A DNA stretch of 64,000 bases from a virus: the IMG/VR virus record IMGVR_UViG_3300033153_010139, positions 1 through 64,000 of that record; one strand, given 5' to 3'. The notes under the pieces were generated by a model. The model searched no databases, was not told where the DNA came from, and saw nothing but the letters and a program-made list of their open reading frames with translations. Below are positions 15 through 6,475 of the stretch, piece by piece. Each line of letters opens with the position of its first letter. Position 1 is the first letter of the stretch. Both the position numbers and the translations under genes were made by a program.

Positions 15-1100
15 ATGCCCACCGACTACCGCAAGTTCACCGCCCGTGACCAAGGCCGGTGGAACAAGAAGATCGCCAGGTCTGCGGTAGACCAGCTTGC
101 GCGCCCAGACGCCTGTGTCCTGTGGACGGCCGGCACGAACACGCGCGGTTACGGCGTGTTTCGGCTGCCGCCGCGCACCGTGCTCGCGCACCGCGCGGCC
201 TACGTGCAGGCACGTGGGCAGATCCCGGACGGCCGGCTGGTGCGCCACACGTGCGATACGCCAGCGTGCGTGAATCCGCGGCACCTGGTGCTGGGCACGG
301 TCGCCGAGAACTCGGCGGACATGGTCGCGCGCGGGCGGAACCTTGGGCTGCGCACTGGCGAGAAGAACGGGCGCGCCAAGCTCGACTGGCCCAAGGTGGA
401 CGAGATTCGCGAGCGCTTGGCCGCGGGTGAATCAGGCCGGTCGCTGGCTCGCGAGTTTGGCGTGACCCAGGCGACGCTTTCCGAGATCAAGCTCGGGCGT
501 ATCTGGCAGAAGCCGGGCGCGGCGATCGTGCCCAAGAAGCCGGGGAAGCCTCGCGGCATAAACCACTCGAAGCGCCGGCCCGTTGCCGATCTCTTCTGGG
601 CGAAGGTCAAGAAGGCCGGCCCAGACGACTGCTGGGAGTGGCAGGCCGGCAAGACGCCGGGCGGCTACGGCGCGTTCCGCTATCATCGCGCCGTTCGTGC
701 GGCCCATCGCGTCGCCTTCAAGCTGGAGCACGGGCGGTGGCCAGTGGATGACGCTGCACACACCTGCGCGAACCGCGCGTGCGTGAACCCCGCTCACCTC
801 GAAGACACGACGCGCACCGCCAACATGCAGAACGAGCAGACCCGCAAGCGGATCGCCTCGAAGGCCCGCGGCGGCCGGCGGAACACCAAGCTCACGGACG
901 ACCAGATCCGCTACGCGAAGGAGCGCTTCCGCGACGATCTTCTTCTATCCGCTCGCAGGCTCGCGGCTGAGATGGGGGATGTTGTTACGCCCGAGTGCCT
1001 GGCCAACATCAGGAAGGGGAAGACCGGGCGGCACGTGAAGGTCAAAGGCTTCCGGGCGCGGAAGGTGACTCCGAAGCAGATCGCGCGGATGCGGGCATGA
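15..1100 (+). CDS. HNH homing endonuclease with two HNH domains and HTH DNA-binding segments
   Basis: Two phage HNH motifs: GYG...LAHR...VRHTCDTPACVNPRHL and GYG...AAHR...AHTCANRACVNPAHL, each followed by an HTH-like segment (SGRSLAREFGVTQATLS). Confidence 0.85.
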   Translation: MPTDYRKFTARDQGRWNKKIARSAVDQLARPDACVLWTAGTNTRGYGVFRLPPRTVLAHRAAYVQARGQIPDGRLVRHTCDTPACVNPRHLVLGTVAENSADMVARGRNLGLRTGEKNGRAKLDWPKVDEIRERLAAGESGRSLAREFGVTQATLSEIKLGRIWQKPGAAIVPKKPGKPRGINHSKRRPVADLFWAKVKKAGPDDCWEWQAGKTPGGYGAFRYHRAVRAAHRVAFKLEHGRWPVDDAAHTCANRACVNPAHLEDTTRTANMQNEQTRKRIASKARGGRRNTKLTDDQIRYAKERFRDDLLLSARRLAAEMGDVVTPECLANIRKGKTGRHVKVKGFRARKVTPKQIARMRA

Positions 1101-1943: not shown

Positions 1944-2432
1944 ATGAGACAGGAAGCACTGGTCGAGCTGGAGCGGATTCGGAGCGAGGACCCGGACGGC
2001 AAGCTGCACCCCGAAGCGGTCGTGGCCGGGGCCCGGCCCGCAGCCTCACCGCTCCACAGGCACTTCACTTGGGGTAACGACGAGGCAGCGCGGCGCTGGC
2101 GGCTCCACCAAGCGGGCAAGATGATTCGCATGGCGATCACGGTGCTGCCATCGGACAACACGATACCAGTGCGAATGTTCGTCTCGGTCGGCAGCGACCG
2201 AACGGCATCGAGCCCGGTCGGCAGCGGCGGCGGCTACCGCAGTGTCGTGAACGTGATGAGCAGCGAGGAGCTGCTCGCGGAGCTGCTCGACGACGCTCTC
2301 CGCGAGATCAACAATTTCCGCAGGAAGTATCGGCGGCTCACGGCGCTGGCGCCCGTGATCTCCGCAATGGACGACGCTATGGAACTCCTCGGCGATGGAG
2401 ACGACGAGGACGACGAGGACGACGAGGACTAG
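1944..2432 (+). CDS. conserved-looking phage protein upstream of the RAMP-like genes, acidic tail
   Basis: GGAGG RBS; LHPEAVV..ARP..SPLHRHFTW..DEAARRWRLHQA motif; GGGTAGAAC at 1908-1916. Confidence 0.75.
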   Translation: MRQEALVELERIRSEDPDGKLHPEAVVAGARPAASPLHRHFTWGNDEAARRWRLHQAGKMIRMAITVLPSDNTIPVRMFVSVGSDRTASSPVGSGGGYRSVVNVMSSEELLAELLDDALREINNFRRKYRRLTALAPVISAMDDAMELLGDGDDEDDEDDED

Positions 2433-2485: not shown

Positions 2486-3244
2486 ATGATCGGGACAGTG
2501 GAAAAGAAGGTCAAGAAGAAGGTCAAGAAGGCGGCCAAGAAGGCCAAGAAGAAGGCGAAGAAGAAGGCGGCCAAGAACGGGACCGGCAACGGCGCTGATC
2601 CCGGGTCCAAGGCACTGGCCATCCTCCCGCCAAACTTCCAGTGGATCGAAGTCCCGATCGTGGGCACGACGGTCTACGTGCAGCACAAGTGGAGCGAGAA
2701 GGCCAGGAAGGCCATGCGCGACGCCCAGGCGGCCGGCTCGTCGGCCAAGCGGAAGGGCGGGAAGCGCGCGCCCAAGGACTTCAACGCGCTCTACAAGGAT
2801 GCGATGCACCGCACCACCGACGGTGGCTACGGGATTCCAGCTGGTGCCTTCTTCAAGGCGCTCGTCTCGGCCTGCAGGCTGTGCGAGTTCAAGATGACGA
2901 TCGCGCGGCAGGCCCTCTACATCCAGGCCGACGCCGAGAGCGCCGATCCCGGTGACCGAGGCGGGCTCGTGCGCATCACGAAGGGCAAGCCGTCGCAGTT
3001 CGAGACGGCGGTTCGGATCCAGCAGACCACCGACATTCGCGTTCGGCCTCTGTGGGAGCCGGGCTGGAAGGCCACCGTCAGGGTGCGCTTCGACGCCGAC
3101 ATTCTCTCGATGGCGGACATCGCCAACTTGTTCATGCGGGCCGGGATGCAGGTCGGCGTCGGCGAGGGCCGCCCGGACACGCCGAGCGGCGGCATGGGCT
3201 GGGGCTTGTTCGAGGTGCTGACGCCGCAAGCGGCCAGCGCGTAA
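2486..3244 (+). CDS. RAMP/Cas7-like RNA-binding protein (paralog 1) with Lys/Ala-rich N-tail
   Basis: YGIPAGAFFKALVSA resembles the RAMP IPxSxxKG(A)LR motif; C-terminal Gly-rich loop GVGEGRP..GMGWGLFEV; GGAGG RBS; adjacent to the repeat array. Confidence 0.7.
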   Translation: MIGTVEKKVKKKVKKAAKKAKKKAKKKAAKNGTGNGADPGSKALAILPPNFQWIEVPIVGTTVYVQHKWSEKARKAMRDAQAAGSSAKRKGGKRAPKDFNALYKDAMHRTTDGGYGIPAGAFFKALVSACRLCEFKMTIARQALYIQADAESADPGDRGGLVRITKGKPSQFETAVRIQQTTDIRVRPLWEPGWKATVRVRFDADILSMADIANLFMRAGMQVGVGEGRPDTPSGGMGWGLFEVLTPQAASA

Positions 3245-3245
3245 G

Positions 3246-3860
3246 GTGAGAGCGGGTCTGAAAGCGCGCAGGGCGAAAGCCCGCAGGAAAGCCGCCCTGA
3301 AGAAAGCGTGGGCGGACAGCTCGAAGACGTGCACTTTCAAGATCAGGGGAACTGCGCGCTACGTGCAGTTCCCCTGGTGCAGCATCGCTCGGCGCTGCTC
3401 TTGCACTAGCCGGATGGTCAGAACGCACGTCGATCCCGAAAAGGGGTTCGACAGCTACGTCAGTCGGGAAGGCTGGGACGGGATTCCGTGGAGTGCGTTC
3501 CTCTACGCCCTAGTTGGGGCGGCATCGCTCGCGGGACTGTCAAAAGTCGCGGCTTATAATCGTCTGGTCGTGAACGCCGACGGGATCGACGCGTTTTACG
3601 AGAAGCCTCTGGTGAGGATCACCAAAGGCACGCCATCGGGTTTTGAGATGATGGGTCGTGTTCTCGCCGCGTGGGAGGCGGGCTGGGAGGCTACCGTCAG
3701 GATGCGCTACGACCCGGAACGCTTCACGTTGGAAGACGTTTTCAATCTGCTCGCGCGGGCGGGAATGCAGGTCGGGATCGGCGAAGGTCGTCCCGGCAGA
3801 CCGGACGGCGGCTGCGGCTACGGCACGTTCGAGGTGCTGACACAGCAGGCCGGCGCGTAG
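3246..3860 (+). CDS. RAMP/Cas7-like protein (paralog 2)
   Basis: Aligns by eye with paralog 1: LVRITKG, WEAGWEATVRMRYD, AGMQVGIGEGRPG..GCGYGTFEVLT. Confidence 0.7.
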   Translation: MRAGLKARRAKARRKAALKKAWADSSKTCTFKIRGTARYVQFPWCSIARRCSCTSRMVRTHVDPEKGFDSYVSREGWDGIPWSAFLYALVGAASLAGLSKVAAYNRLVVNADGIDAFYEKPLVRITKGTPSGFEMMGRVLAAWEAGWEATVRMRYDPERFTLEDVFNLLARAGMQVGIGEGRPGRPDGGCGYGTFEVLTQQAGA

Positions 3861-3872
3861 AGATACAAACCA

Positions 3873-3919
3873 GTAGAGGCTGCGCGGCGTGCGCTCCTTC
3901 ACGTCGCGCGGCTCTCTGC
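3873..3919 (+). other. stem-loop in the leader of the array
   Basis: GTAGAG-GCTGCGCGGCGTG pairs with CACGTCGCGCGGC-T-CTCTGC using G-U pairs; 8-nt loop. Confidence 0.6.
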
Positions 3920-3930
3920 CGGTGTGACAT

Positions 3931-5544
3931 GGCAGGCTAGGTTCGGCATGGCGCGGCTAGGTCCGGCCAGGCCCGGCGCGGTCAGGCACGGCAGGCAGGG
4001 TTCGGCGCGGCAGGGTTCGGCCCGGACGTGGCGGGGCAAGGCAGGCTGGGCAGGGCCAGGCTCGATTCGGCGTGGCTCGTTGCGGCGCGGCGGGGCAGGC
4101 ATGGCAAGGCCGGGACGGGTGCGGCGGGGCTAGGACTGGACTGGCAGGCACGGCGCGGTCGGCTCGGAGCGCTACGGTCAGGTCCGGCTCGGTCCGGCAG
4201 GGACTGGCCAGGCAGGCATGGCAGGGCAGGCGCGGTGTGGTCAGGTCCGACAGGGCTGGGCGCGGCGGGGCCAGGCAGGCTTGGTGTGGTAAGGCCCGGC
4301 TTGGCATGGTCTGTCGAGGACCGGTCAGGCGCGGCGCGGTCAGGCAAGGCAGGCAGGGTTCGGCAGGGCCGGTCGGGGTGTGGTCGGGCTCGGTACGGCA
4401 CGGCAGGCAAGGTTAGGCGCGGCTGGGCGCGGTTCGGCACGACTTGGCAGGCATGGCTCGGCAGGACTAGGCGGGGTCCGTCCTGGCCCGACGCGGTTGG
4501 GCAGGCGCGGCGTGGCTGGGCACGGTATTGCTCGGTTTGGCGGGGCTCGGCAGGGCAGGCGGGGTGTGGCCCGTCGAGGTAGCGCAGGGTCAGGCACGGC
4601 CAGGCCCGGTTCGGCAGGCGAGGACAGGTTCGGGACGGCTAGGCACGGCAGGCACGGCAGGCATGGCAGGGCCGCGCTAGGTTAGGCGTGGCGTGGCGAG
4701 ACCCGGCAGGCGTGGCTCGGCAAGGTTCGTCAGGTTTCGGCACGGCCGGGTTCGGCAGGGCAGGCAGGGTAGGGCCGGGCAGTGCGCGGCAGGGTCCGGT
4801 GCGATTCGGCTGGGCAGGCAGGGTCCGGCGCGGTTGGGCACGGTAAGGCACGGCTAGGCTCGGTCCGGTATGGCCGGGCAGGCAGGGTTAGGCATGTCGA
4901 GGCGTGGCGCGGCGCGGCAGGGTTTGGTGCGGCAGGCGAGGTTCGGTTAGGTCGGGCAGGGTTCGGCGCGGCCAGGCCGGGCCGGGCCGGGCAGGCAAGG
5001 TGAGGCACGGCGAGGCGAGGCTGGACCTGGCTGGGTCCGGCAGGCAAGGCTAGGCGCGGTTCGGTACGGCTTGGCGAGGCAGGCATGGTGAGGCCGGGCT
5101 AGGTCGGGAGCGATTTGGCAAGGTTCGGCAGGCATGGTTTGGCTCGGCCAGGTACGGCAAGGCACGGCCTTGGCACGGCCCGGCGCGGCAGGCAAGGTTT
5201 GGCAAGGCCGGGCGCGGCACGGCCTGACGGGGCTCGGCAGGCGTGGCGGGGCTCGGTTCGGCGTGGTCAGGCTTGGCGCGACGCGGCGCGGCAGGCGAGG
5301 ACAGGTTCGGGACGGTTAGGCGCGGCAGGGTCCGGCCAGGTCCGGCAGGCAAGGCTCGGTTAGGCAGGTCATGGCGCGGCAAGGACCGGCTCGGTACTGC
5401 GCGGCAGGGCAGGCAAGGTTTGGCACGGCACGGCATGGCGGGACGGGGCTTGGCTTGGCGAGGCAGGCGGGGTCCGGCATTGCCCGGCGTGGACAGGCAA
5501 GGCATGGCATGGTGAGGCGGGATTCGGCACGGCAGGCAAGGCAA
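3931..5544 (+). repeat. GGY-NN pentamer array, about 30 units delimited by 4-nt GGCA (putative guide-RNA array)
   Basis: Hand parse gives GGCA at 3931, 3990, 4040, 4094, 4143, 4211, 4225, 4274, 4348, 4402, 4446, 4500, 4554, 4613 and onward to 5462 and 5531; most are followed by 8-12 GG(C/T)NN pentamers; strong G skew; no credible ORF. Confidence 0.9.
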
Positions 5545-5557
5545 GGAGAACATCAGC

Positions 5558-5854: not shown

Positions 5855-6475
5855 ATGAGTCGGACCGCAAAGAACCTGTCCTCGGCGCAGGTCGAACGCC
5901 TGTTTCGAGCGGGCGAGAGCACTGTCGAGGAGGAGCGAATCGCCAGGGCGAGACTGCAGCCGTCCAGACGCGGCAGTATGCCCACCGCCGCTCGCGACCT
6001 CGCGCTGGCCCGGCTCGCCACCGCCGGATTTCGGCCCGCCGAGATGGCTCACATGGTGGTCGGGGACCTTGGCGACGCGTCCGTGCGCGTCGTGACGCGA
6101 ACACCGGGGCATGAGGTTGAGGGGCGCGCGGAGTTGAACCAAACGACCGCCGCATGGATCGGCAGGGCCATCCGCGAGACAGGTGTAGCGGGTGACCCAG
6201 AGGCGCCCTTGTTTCCGAGCAGGCACAGCCGCAAGCCGATGAGTACTCGCGCGATTTGGGACTCGATCAAGAAGCTCCTCAAGCGTGCTCGCCTGCGGAA
6301 CCACAGCGCGGAGGATTTGCGGCGGTTCTATCTGAGGCGTGTTGTTGAGGATTTGCGCCAGGAGCCGGGACCGTTCGACCTGGTAAGGTTCGCTGTTCTT
6401 GGCCGCTTCCAGTCGCTCACGCACGCGTTGCGCCACGTCGAGCCGGTGCTGCGCGCTGACGCCAAGCCGGGCTAG
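5855..6475 (+). CDS. tyrosine recombinase-fold protein with degenerate active site
   Basis: RDLALARLATAGFRPAEM, PLFPSR, HSAEDLRR, VLGRFQSLTHALRH; catalytic His, His/Trp and Tyr positions substituted. Confidence 0.7.
   Translation: MSRTAKNLSSAQVERLFRAGESTVEEERIARARLQPSRRGSMPTAARDLALARLATAGFRPAEMAHMVVGDLGDASVRVVTRTPGHEVEGRAELNQTTAAWIGRAIRETGVAGDPEAPLFPSRHSRKPMSTRAIWDSIKKLLKRARLRNHSAEDLRRFYLRRVVEDLRQEPGPFDLVRFAVLGRFQSLTHALRHVEPVLRADAKPG

What the first reader, a model, noticed from the sequence alone, without database searches (positions are those of the whole stretch)
3931..5530. Variable NN dinucleotides decode as antisense codon positions 1-2: guides may skip the wobble base
For each unit I took the NNs, reverse-complemented them and added one free base per pair. 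Unit 4813-4876 gives CGn ATn GGn GAn TAn GTn TTn GTn CAn GCn GGn CTn = R-I/M-G-D/E-Y-V-F/L-V-H/Q-A-G-L, like the metallophosphatase FVHAG or HypC GDYVLVHAG motifs. Unit 4554-4612 gives D/E-G-W/C-V-W/C-L-L-S-G-T-P, like SF2/SNF2 helicase motif III. Unit 4274-4347 gives F/L-C-A-A-C-G-S-R/S-I/M and unit 3931-3989 gives V-C-A-G-C-G-Y-A-I/M, both CxxC knuckles if TGn is Cys. Others read LDPKEIVQTA, LAVDGFAILYDF and RRRWAELRYDS. The second N looks C-enriched by eye, as expected for the complement of G-rich codon position 1. Inference: targets are gapped NN-x-NN-x sites in conserved coding motifs, which would be largely immune to synonymous escape. Caveat: any dinucleotide yields a residue and I chose among ambiguous residues post hoc.
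Basis: partly seen in the sequence, partly recalled or inferred. Interest (0 to 1): 0.92.

Follow-up and report, generated by a model that had tools for sequence, protein, structure and literature searches.

The report
Phage VIPR guide-RNA array

Summary

It is a "staggered" vrRNA array of a VIPR system. A vap-like gene (1944-2432), a lone Cas7-like Vipr gene (2486-3244) and a truncated Vipr paralog (3246-3860) lie upstream.

Three 2026 bioRxiv preprints already report that the NN pair with DNA under a "1 nt skip" rule, that the skipped base falls on the codon wobble position, and that this blocks mutational escape. So the inference is correct but not new.

I tested it here. Unit 4813 without its constrained first NN (22 specified bases, NNx) gave:
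- 66 exact hits in metagenome contigs;
- 83 exact hits in 185,579 species genomes;
- 0 hits for a shuffled version in the same genome collection.

All 149 sites lie in open frames with x at codon position 3.

Three other guides (3931, 4931, 4554) gave nothing where I could search. The true target (host gene or a rival element's homolog) is open.

This scan has noted VIPR arrays before on other DNA (478 notes in at least 361 genomes).

The parts
1944..2432 (+). vap-like accessory gene (162 aa, phrog_15946, acidic C-tail)
   Evidence: A homolog lies beside vipr in 71 of 81 related loci, on the same strand. The AF2 model has pLDDT 85. Its best Foldseek hits are forkhead winged-helix DNA-binding domains, but the best E is 0.095 and none reaches 0.001. 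No Pfam or PADLOC family matched.
2486..3244 (+). vipr gene: lone RAMP/Cas7-like protein (P0001, 252 aa, Lys-rich N-tail, G-loop QVGVGEGRP...GMGWGLF)
   Evidence: It matches phrog_4652 at E 4e-17 and has more than 1324 unnamed homologs. The AF2 model has pLDDT 80. Foldseek against PDB gives 67 hits at E<=0.001; the listed top hits are chains of type III Csm/Cmr and type VII CRISPR effector complexes, best E 1.2e-5.
3246..3860 (+). second, diverged vipr paralog (P0002, 204 aa, 40% identical to P0001) with internal deletions, one in the long beta-hairpin
   Evidence: It matches phrog_4652 at E 6e-6, C-terminal part only. Alignment A1 shows the G-loop kept and two internal stretches missing. None of the 81 related loci has two vipr copies.
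3873..3919 (+). leader hairpin between the vipr paralog and the array
   Evidence: RNA fold of 3858-3940 gives a 19-pair stem, MFE -40.1 kcal/mol, z -3.3 against 200 shuffles. Its function is not shown.
3931..5545 (+). staggered vrRNA array: 32 units, each ending GGCAG, whose last G is the first G of the next unit (GGCRN...)
   Evidence: The same architecture lies beside vipr homologs in 72 of 80 IMG/VR loci, and in Gordonia phage UmaThurman and Mycobacterium phage Mattes. It matches the legend of fig. S18 of 10.64898/2026.04.26.720920. There is no Rfam match.
4813..4876 (+). guide unit whose NN series is the antisense of codon positions 1-2 of R-I-G-D-Y-V-F-V-H-A-G-L
   Evidence: The 11-NN NNx pattern gave 66 exact hits in metagenome contigs and 83 in genome contigs. 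A shuffled pattern gave 0 in genome contigs, and the real pattern gave 0 in IMG/VR. The full 12 NN are matched in 15 of 66 and 18 of 83 sites.

Best explanation
The region is the guide array of a VIPR (Viral Interference Programmable Repeat) system carried by an uncultured high-GC myovirus.

Inferred from the published systems: the + strand is transcribed together with, or just after, vap-vipr-vipr2 and cut into about 50-nt vrRNAs at the 1-nt-overlapping GGCAG/GGC junctions. One Vipr protomer binds each pentamer, hides GGY and presents the NN. The NN pair with two consecutive bases of one DNA strand while every third target base is flipped out. The bound complex blocks transcription.

Because the period of the target is 3, guides aimed at coding DNA in the right phase read codon positions 1-2 and ignore the wobble base, so synonymous changes do not free the target.

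Shown here:
- the anatomy of the array;
- the RAMP fold of the protein;
- the gene-array linkage across relatives;
- no self-target in the phage genome;
- for unit 4813, exact phase-locked matches to the RIGDYVFVHAG(L) motif of PPP-type metallophosphatase genes.

Not shown: transcription, processing, binding, repression, and which gene in which genome is the natural target.

My odds for the target of unit 4813: a homolog carried by a rival phage or other mobile element not in the databases 0.55; the host's own chromosomal phosphatase gene 0.25; other or none 0.2.
For: Array anatomy:
- 32 units; 242 of 296 pentamers are GGY; positions 4-5 are near uniform.
- Only the first NN of a unit is constrained (GGC-R-N).

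Protein:
- Foldseek top hits are chains of type III Csm/Cmr and type VII CRISPR effector complexes, E 1.2e-5; 67 hits at E<=0.001.

Linkage:
- 72 of 80 IMG/VR loci with a homolog carry a same-strand pentamer array within 1.5 kb.
- The vap homolog is present in 71 of 81 loci.

Literature:
- The VIPR definition, the 1 nt skip rule, skip bases at the wobble position, staggered arrays and no self-targets are reported.
- Cryo-EM shows one protomer per repeat and a pocket for the skipped base.
- Codon periodicity is stated to prevent escape (abstract).

Direct test:
- Unit 4813 NNx (22 bases) gave 66 hits and 83 hits.
- The seeded shuffle gave 0 hits in the same 596-Gb collection; 0.04-0.07 hits are expected by chance.
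- All sites lie in open frames of 73-493 aa (metagenome) or at least 101 aa, median 304 (genomes), in the phase that puts x on codon position 3.
- 9 of 9 long ORFs scanned are PF00149 and 4 of 4 short ones are PF01455.
- The sites comprise 50 and 73 distinct 32-mers that differ only at x.

NN spectrum:
- In the window, antisense codon 1-2 is the best of six phase models: -920 bits against -963 to -1049.
- In 45 related loci, a phase 1-2 model is best in 39.

Self-targets:
- None above shuffles under skip 0-3.
Against: - Only 1 of the 4 guides I searched outside the phage gave hits. Units 3931 and 4931 gave 0 in IMG/VR. Unit 4554 gave 0 in IMG/VR, 0 in 5 genomes, and 1 real against 2 control hits at up to 2 mismatches in 401 genomes.
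- The two large collections were queried with unit 4813 only, so generality within this array is untested.
A Markov bound still gives p<=0.0008 per guide and <=0.03 after allowing for 32 units.
- Unit 4813 has no hit in IMG/VR. In 3 of 3 loci examined, its hits have chromosomal neighbours and not mobile-element ones. That is not the target class the preprints describe.
- For the window's NN, a uniform model (-932) is only 12 bits worse than antisense 1-2, and a fitted independent-position model (-911) is better.
- Per-unit strand coherence is not significant (p 0.13).
- There are no RNA data for this phage.
- The skip rule was shown experimentally for type II systems (SUSP1, P. fulva). tblastn with P0001 listed no Escherichia phage among its 33 records, so this Vipr is a distant clade.
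Confidence: 0.88

Rival explanations
1. It is a VIPR array, but it is used against the host. Guides such as unit 4813 silence chromosomal host genes (here a PPP-family or ApaH-like metallophosphatase of an alphaproteobacterium) as part of host takeover, and do not silence rival mobile elements.
For: All named hits of unit 4813 are bacterial chromosomes or MAG contigs, mostly Alphaproteobacteria. The full 12-NN match occurs in 18 of 83: Kiloniellaceae, Pelagibius, Thalassobaculum, Rhodospirillales, two Novosphingobium and one Planctomycetota, with GC 0.61-0.71 against about 0.67 for the phage. Neighbours are ordinary chromosomal genes in 3 of 3 loci. There are 0 hits in 2.9 million IMG/VR contigs.
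Against: The host is unknown. No other guide matched the 149 fetched loci above shuffles. A very conserved motif will be hit in many genomes whoever owns the true target. An earlier scan claim of this kind partly fell on later checking (e1-5205340). The phosphatase is not a known defence gene (PADLOC 0 of 5).
Confidence: 0.25
2. The guides act on RNA. The array's NN are mostly antisense to coding strands, so the complex could bind mRNA and not DNA.
For: In the window's NN spectrum, antisense 1-2 beats sense 1-2 by 42 bits. Unit 4813 is complementary to the sense strand in all 149 hits. The fold neighbours, type III Csm/Cmr complex chains, belong to RNA-targeting complexes (that last point is recalled, not tested).
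Against: The preprints show dsDNA binding and silencing on either strand. In 30 of 45 related loci the sense 1-2 model fits best, which an mRNA-only mode would not give.
Confidence: 0.06
3. The peptide-like readings are pareidolia. The array is a guide array or a structural repeat whose NN have nothing to do with codons, and the unit-4813 match is a coincidence.
For: Any dinucleotide gives a residue. Three of four guides gave no hit. A near-uniform NN composition fits almost as well.
Against: 66 and 83 exact hits against about 0.05 expected, and 0 for the shuffle. All hits are in one frame of two recognised protein families. The family-wide NN spectrum favours phase 1-2.
Confidence: 0.03

Closest known systems
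VIPR systems with staggered vrRNA arrays (bioRxiv 10.64898/2026.04.26.720920, fig. S18 legend; supplements not readable here)
   Same: A lone RAMP (Vipr) gene plus a small accessory gene. A GGY/NN pentamer array sits on the same strand. Adjacent guides share one nucleotide at their junction (here GGCA-G-GC). The system is phage-borne and has no self-targets.
   Different: This array is the largest among the 81 loci compared: 296 pentamers and 32 units, against at most 217 pentamers beside vipr in the relatives. It has a second, truncated vipr paralog, seen in none of the 81 relatives. The vap gene is upstream, not downstream (4 of 70 relatives). Which of the seven published types this is could not be decided, because the figures and tables are not held.
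Type II VIPR of Escherichia phage SUSP1 and the Pseudomonas fulva prophage (same preprint; cryo-EM in 10.64898/2026.04.26.720927)
   Same: GGY-NN code. NNx target periodicity with x on the wobble position. RAMP fold with G-loop and thumb.
   Different: SUSP1 vrRNAs are about 100 nt with an invariant 3' tail and pseudoknot, whereas here the units are 44-74 nt with no tail. tblastn with P0001 listed no Escherichia phage among its 33 records. The published targets are satellites and prophages, whereas here the only matches found are chromosomal bacterial genes.
Class 1 CRISPR effector backbones (Cas7/Csm3 filaments on crRNA)
   Same: One RAMP subunit per fixed step of the guide; a thumb that breaks the duplex periodically. 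The listed Foldseek top hits are chains of type III Csm/Cmr and type VII effector complexes.
   Different: The step is 5 nt with 3 guide bases hidden and 1 target base skipped, against a 6-nt step with 1 flipped base (the 6-nt step is stated). There are no repeat-spacer array, no cas1/cas2 and no other cas genes in the neighbourhood.

Membership tests
VIPR system | Lone RAMP-fold Vipr protein (RRM core, G-loop, thumb) | tested here: met
   AF2 model pLDDT 80. Foldseek against PDB: 67 hits at E<=0.001; the listed top hits are chains of type III Csm/Cmr and type VII CRISPR effector complexes, best E 1.2e-5. A conserved Gly-rich C-terminal loop is seen in 30 of 30 aligned homologs.
VIPR system | vrRNA genes made of tandem GGY/NN pentamers with conserved GGY and hypervariable NN (9-16 repeats in the SUSP1 and P. 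fulva vrRNAs) | tested here: met
   242 of 296 pentamers are GGY. Positions 4 and 5 are near uniform. Units hold mostly 8-14 pentamers.
VIPR system | Array lies beside the vipr gene, and the linkage is kept across homologs | tested here: met
   72 of 80 IMG/VR loci carry a same-strand array within 1.5 kb. The same holds in UmaThurman gp39 and Mattes gp52.
VIPR system | Accessory vap gene beside vipr | tested here: met
   A homolog of 1944-2432 is present in 71 of 81 loci, always on the vipr strand. The DNA-binding (winged-helix) nature is only hinted at: best Foldseek E 0.095.
VIPR system | Targets follow the 1 nt skip rule (NNx) | tested here: inconclusive
   Met for unit 4813: 66 and 83 exact hits against 0 for the shuffle. 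Nothing was found for units 3931, 4931 and 4554. In the phage's own genome all four rules equal the shuffles.
VIPR system | Skipped base falls on codon position 3 of coding targets | tested here: met
   149 of 149 sites of unit 4813 lie in an open frame in that phase. 13 of 13 ORFs scanned belong to a Pfam family. The sites differ only at x.
VIPR system | No self-targeting of the source contig | tested here: met
   For 28 units, best matches in the 119-kb genome equal shuffles.
VIPR system | vrRNAs are expressed, processed and bound by Vipr, and the complex silences DNA targets | not testable with these tools
   No sequencing run was listed for this DNA. This needs bench work.
Type II VIPR (SUSP1 clade) | Invariant 3' tail with pseudoknot after each repeat tract; detectable sequence similarity to SUSP1 Vipr | tested here: not met
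   Units abut with a 1-nt overlap and have no tail. tblastn of P0001 against 50,697 phage records gave 33 hits (27 Mycobacterium, 5 Gordonia, 1 cyanophage) and no Escherichia phage. Whether SUSP1 is in that collection was not checked.
CRISPR-Cas | Repeat-spacer array plus cas1/cas2 or a multi-subunit effector operon | tested here: not met
   There are no long direct repeats, only the 5-nt period. Neighbouring genes are HNH, an integrase-like gene, NUDIX and unknowns. There is no PADLOC hit.

The most novel reading that the evidence does not exclude
A lytic-looking environmental myovirus uses part of its 32-guide VIPR array against its host and not against rival elements. Unit 4813 would silence the host's chromosomal PPP-family (ApaH/PrpE-like) metallophosphatase by reading only codon positions 1-2 of its most conserved motif, which the host cannot change synonymously. 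The duplicated, thumb-truncated Vipr paralog would be a dedicated capping or processing subunit, a first step towards multi-subunit CRISPR-like effectors.
Probability: 0.2. Interest if true: 0.6.

Novelty: new member of a known kind. Interest (0 to 1): 0.3.

Why it matters
The principle is new to biology: programmable guides that read two of every three bases and are therefore blind to synonymous change. It was published in 2026, so this locus adds an example and not a concept.

What it adds:
- An independent, purely computational confirmation of the wobble-skip rule in a Vipr clade far from the one tested at the bench.
- A very large staggered array.
- A second truncated Vipr gene.
- A guide whose only database matches are chromosomal phosphatase genes of Alphaproteobacteria, which hints that such arrays may also be turned on host genes.

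It also flags that well-studied actinophages carry the same system under 'hypothetical protein'. Examples are Mycobacterium phage Mattes gp52 and Gordonia phage UmaThurman gp39, where bench tests would be easy.

Tried and rejected
Coding reading of the array: the region has only short ORFs on both strands (the longest + strand ORF is 184 aa). A 5-nt period is not a coding period. Rejected.

Self-targets: 28 units against the 119-kb genome under skip 0-3 gave mean best match 0.73-0.74 for real and shuffled alike. The gene-frame codon scan was also null.

Cross-targeting among relatives:
- 710, 508 and 346 guide windows (K = 8, 9, 10) against 1.3 Mb of loci gave at most 1 exact hit, the same as shuffles.
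- Window guides against 82 VIPR loci, and 152 foreign guide segments against this genome, gave nothing above shuffles.

Other guides against the 66 and 83 loci fetched with unit 4813: none above shuffles.

IMG/VR exact scans: units 4813 (12 NN and 11 NN), 3931, 4931 and 4554 gave 0 hits each.

Unit 4554 in 5 genomes gave 0 hits. In 401 genomes of the class of G001, at up to 2 mismatches, it gave 1 real against 2 backwards-control hits.

Host or relatives:
- blastn of 8 kb gave no match in the phage collection.
- The sheath protein has only distant hits of 33% identity or less.

Sequencing runs: none was listed, and no RNA holder was listed.

Other nulls:
- Rfam gave nothing relevant.
- The sigma-70 and terminator scan gave nothing useful.
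- PADLOC gave no family for 5 target ORFs, both Vipr proteins or vap.
- NCBIfam gave only below-cut-off ApaH, PrpE and Ser/Thr-phosphatase matches for 3 target ORFs.
- Per-unit sense/antisense coherence was not significant (p 0.13).
- The vap fold search had no match at E<=0.001.
- The phage's own two Metallophos genes are of another kind and carry no site.

The type (I-VII) of this system could not be assigned. Figures and supplementary tables of the preprints are not held, and supplements are closed; they may list this clade or its targets.

A claim that host-gene targeting is not in print rests only on the Results of 10.64898/2026.04.26.720920 and on the abstracts seen. [quoted passage not shown]
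Full report
What is there. Window 3931-5545 is a 1.6-kb non-coding, G-rich stretch (GC 0.73-0.75, GC skew 0.22-0.32) with a 5-nt period. The heptamer GGCAGGC occurs 32 times in it, against 13 times in the other 62 kb of the window. Of the 31 spacings, 28 are 4 mod 5, so each unit is GGCA followed by whole pentamers. Of 296 pentamers, 242 are GG[CT]NN. Position 1 is G in 285 and position 2 in 265. Positions 4 and 5 are near uniform, except that position 5 is C-rich. Within a unit only the first pentamer is constrained (always GGC, then A or G in 23 of 26 units). Read differently, each unit ends with GGCAG, and that last G is also the first G of the next unit.

A script reproduced every decoding in the finding. 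G at codon position 1 in 112 crudely called genes of this phage is also 40%.

The neighbourhood. Upstream on the same strand lie:
- a 162-aa gene (1944-2432, phrog_15946);
- a 252-aa gene (2486-3244, P0001, phrog_4652);
- a diverged 204-aa paralog (3246-3860, P0002).

None has a Pfam or NCBIfam name. P0001 has more than 1324 unnamed homologs. These share an invariant Gly-rich loop, QVG[IV]GEGR...G.GWG.F. An AlphaFold model (pLDDT 80) matches chains of type III Csm/Cmr and type VII CRISPR effector complexes (best E 1.2e-5, 67 hits at E<=0.001). The protein is therefore a lone RAMP. A 19-pair hairpin (3873-3919, z -3.3) precedes the array.

Linkage in relatives. Eighty IMG/VR loci encoding homologs were fetched. 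Of these, 72 carry a same-strand GG-pentamer array within 1.5 kb of the gene. A homolog of the 162-aa gene is present in 71 of 81 loci, and none has two RAMP copies. Isolated phages have the same set under 'hypothetical protein'. Examples are Gordonia phage UmaThurman gp39 with an array directly after it, and Mycobacterium phage Mattes with an array directly before gp52. tblastn finds 33 phage records: 27 Mycobacterium, 5 Gordonia and Cyanophage Cy-LDV1 at 47% identity.

What is known. A literature search led to bioRxiv 10.64898/2026.04.26.720920. I read its Results, its Methods sections 20, 26 and 27, and figure legends found by search. It describes VIPR systems:
- a Vipr RAMP, a vap gene and vrRNAs of GGY/NN repeats;
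- NN that pair with dsDNA under a '1 nt skip rule';
- targets on both strands and no self-targets;
- seven types, and 'staggered' arrays in which adjacent vrRNAs overlap by 1 nt.

A companion cryo-EM preprint (10.64898/2026.04.26.720927; abstract and sections 5-6) shows one protomer per repeat, GGY sequestered, and a pocket that takes exactly one skipped target base. A third preprint (10.64898/2026.10.15.759431; abstract only) states that the code 'matches the codon periodicity' of a target gene, 'preventing mutation-based escape'. A fourth recovers 99 VIPR-like clusters from intergenic DNA (passages). This scan has itself logged 478 such notes in at least 361 genomes.

Testing the inference on this array.

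(a) Own genome. For 28 units under skip 0-3, best matches equal those of shuffled units. In-frame codon matching is also null. The preprint reports the same for source contigs.

(b) NN spectrum. For 233 NN (first pentamers and out-of-register units dropped), the antisense codon 1-2 model scores -920 bits. The other five phase models score -963 to -1049. However, a uniform model scores -932 and a fitted independent-position model scores -911, so this is supportive only. Across relatives, 45 of 80 loci were usable; the rest had too little long-ORF sequence or fewer than 15 NN. For 2100 NN, a phase 1-2 model is best in 39 of the 45 loci (sense in 30, antisense in 9). Totals are sense 1-2 -8327, uniform -8400, and all phase 2-3 and 3-1 models -8766 or worse.

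(c) Exact pattern scans. Full units 4813, 3931 and 4931 gave 0 hits in IMG/VR. After dropping the constrained first NN, unit 4813 (11 NN, 22 specified bases) gave 66 hits in metagenome contigs. In the 596-Gb species-genome collection, a seeded shuffle of the same 11 NN gave 0 hits and the real pattern gave 83. The chance expectation is 0.04-0.07. By Markov's inequality, p is at most about 0.0008 for one guide and 0.03 after allowing for all 32 units.

What the hits are. All 149 sites lie in an open frame on the strand complementary to the guide, in the phase that puts x on codon position 3. Frames are 73-493 aa in the metagenome set, and at least 101 aa with a median of 304 in the genome set. 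The peptide is RIGDYVFVHAG in 79 of 83 genome hits. Nine of 9 long ORFs scanned are calcineurin-like phosphoesterases (PF00149). The 4 short ORFs with YVLVHAG are HupF/HypC (PF01455). The sites comprise 50 and 73 distinct 32-mers that differ only at the x positions, which shows in practice that one guide covers many synonymous variants. The complete 12-NN guide (adding Leu after HAG) is matched in 15 of 66 and 18 of 83 sites.

Who owns the target. The named genomes are mostly Alphaproteobacteria: many Novosphingobium and other Sphingomonadales, Hyphomonadaceae, Kiloniellaceae and Rhodospirillales. The 12-NN matches come chiefly from Kiloniellaceae, Pelagibius, Thalassobaculum and Rhodospirillales, plus two Novosphingobium, at GC 0.61-0.71. 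In 3 of 3 loci examined the neighbours are ordinary chromosomal genes: EAL, cytochrome c, CopD, a GluQ-like synthetase and hydrolases. The phosphatase is not a PADLOC defence family, and IMG/VR holds no site. This could mean a host gene is the target. Equally, the true target may be a homolog on an unsampled rival element that shares a very conserved motif. No other guide matched the 149 fetched loci, so there is no convergence to decide it. An earlier scan claim of the bold kind partly fell on later checking, so I keep the host-gene reading at about 0.2-0.25.

Limits. Unit 4554 (the 'SNF2' reading) found nothing. The CxxC readings remain untested guesses. The phage is an IMG/VR record, estimated 43% complete. 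It is a myovirus by its sheath gene, with no close relative in the phage collection and an unknown host.

Verdict. It is, however, the published VIPR wobble-skip code. The locus is a new, large, staggered-array member of a known kind, with three small peculiarities worth a note:
- a truncated second Vipr paralog;
- an antisense-biased guide set;
- a guide whose only matches are chromosomal phosphatase genes.

Noticed in passing
window 3246-3860: There is a second vipr paralog (P0002), 40% identical to the first. It keeps the G-loop but lacks two internal stretches, one at the tip of the long beta-hairpin of the model. None of the 81 related loci has two copies. It could be a capping or processing subunit, or a decaying duplicate.
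   Followed up: partly
L001 (Mycobacterium phage Mattes NC_051681.1, 36730-37711) and L002 (Gordonia phage UmaThurman NC_031249.1, 32723-33670): Well-known actinophages carry the same Vipr gene (phrog_4652; Mattes gp52, UmaThurman gp39) next to GGCAGGC-punctuated GGY-NN arrays. Both are annotated as hypothetical proteins. In all, 33 phage records (27 Mycobacterium, 5 Gordonia, 1 cyanophage) hold a homolog. These would be convenient bench models.
   Followed up: partly
window 3931-5545 versus L003-L082: The window's NN fit the antisense of codon positions 1-2, whereas in 30 of 45 related loci the sense orientation fits best. The guide-strand preference seems to differ between phages.
   Followed up: partly
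window 4613-4646 and 5290-5343: Two units start with nearly the same series (GGCGA GGACA GGTTC GGGAC GG[CT]TA GGC[AG]C). This is a trace of duplication within the array.
   Followed up: no
window 15-1100: An HNH endonuclease gene (PF13392, E 4.5e-20) lies at the window start. A homolog is present in 4 of the 81 VIPR loci.
   Followed up: no
window 5855-6475: A short (206 aa) tyrosine-recombinase-like ORF (Phage_integrase, E 1.6e-7) lies just after the array. It is not conserved beside vipr in any of the 81 related loci.
   Followed up: partly
G000:C1:55298-55852 and 76562-77116: The phage encodes two calcineurin-like phosphoesterase domains of its own. The one inside the window, read, lacks the GDYVFVHAG motif, and no site for unit 4813 was found anywhere in the phage genome.
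   Followed up: partly
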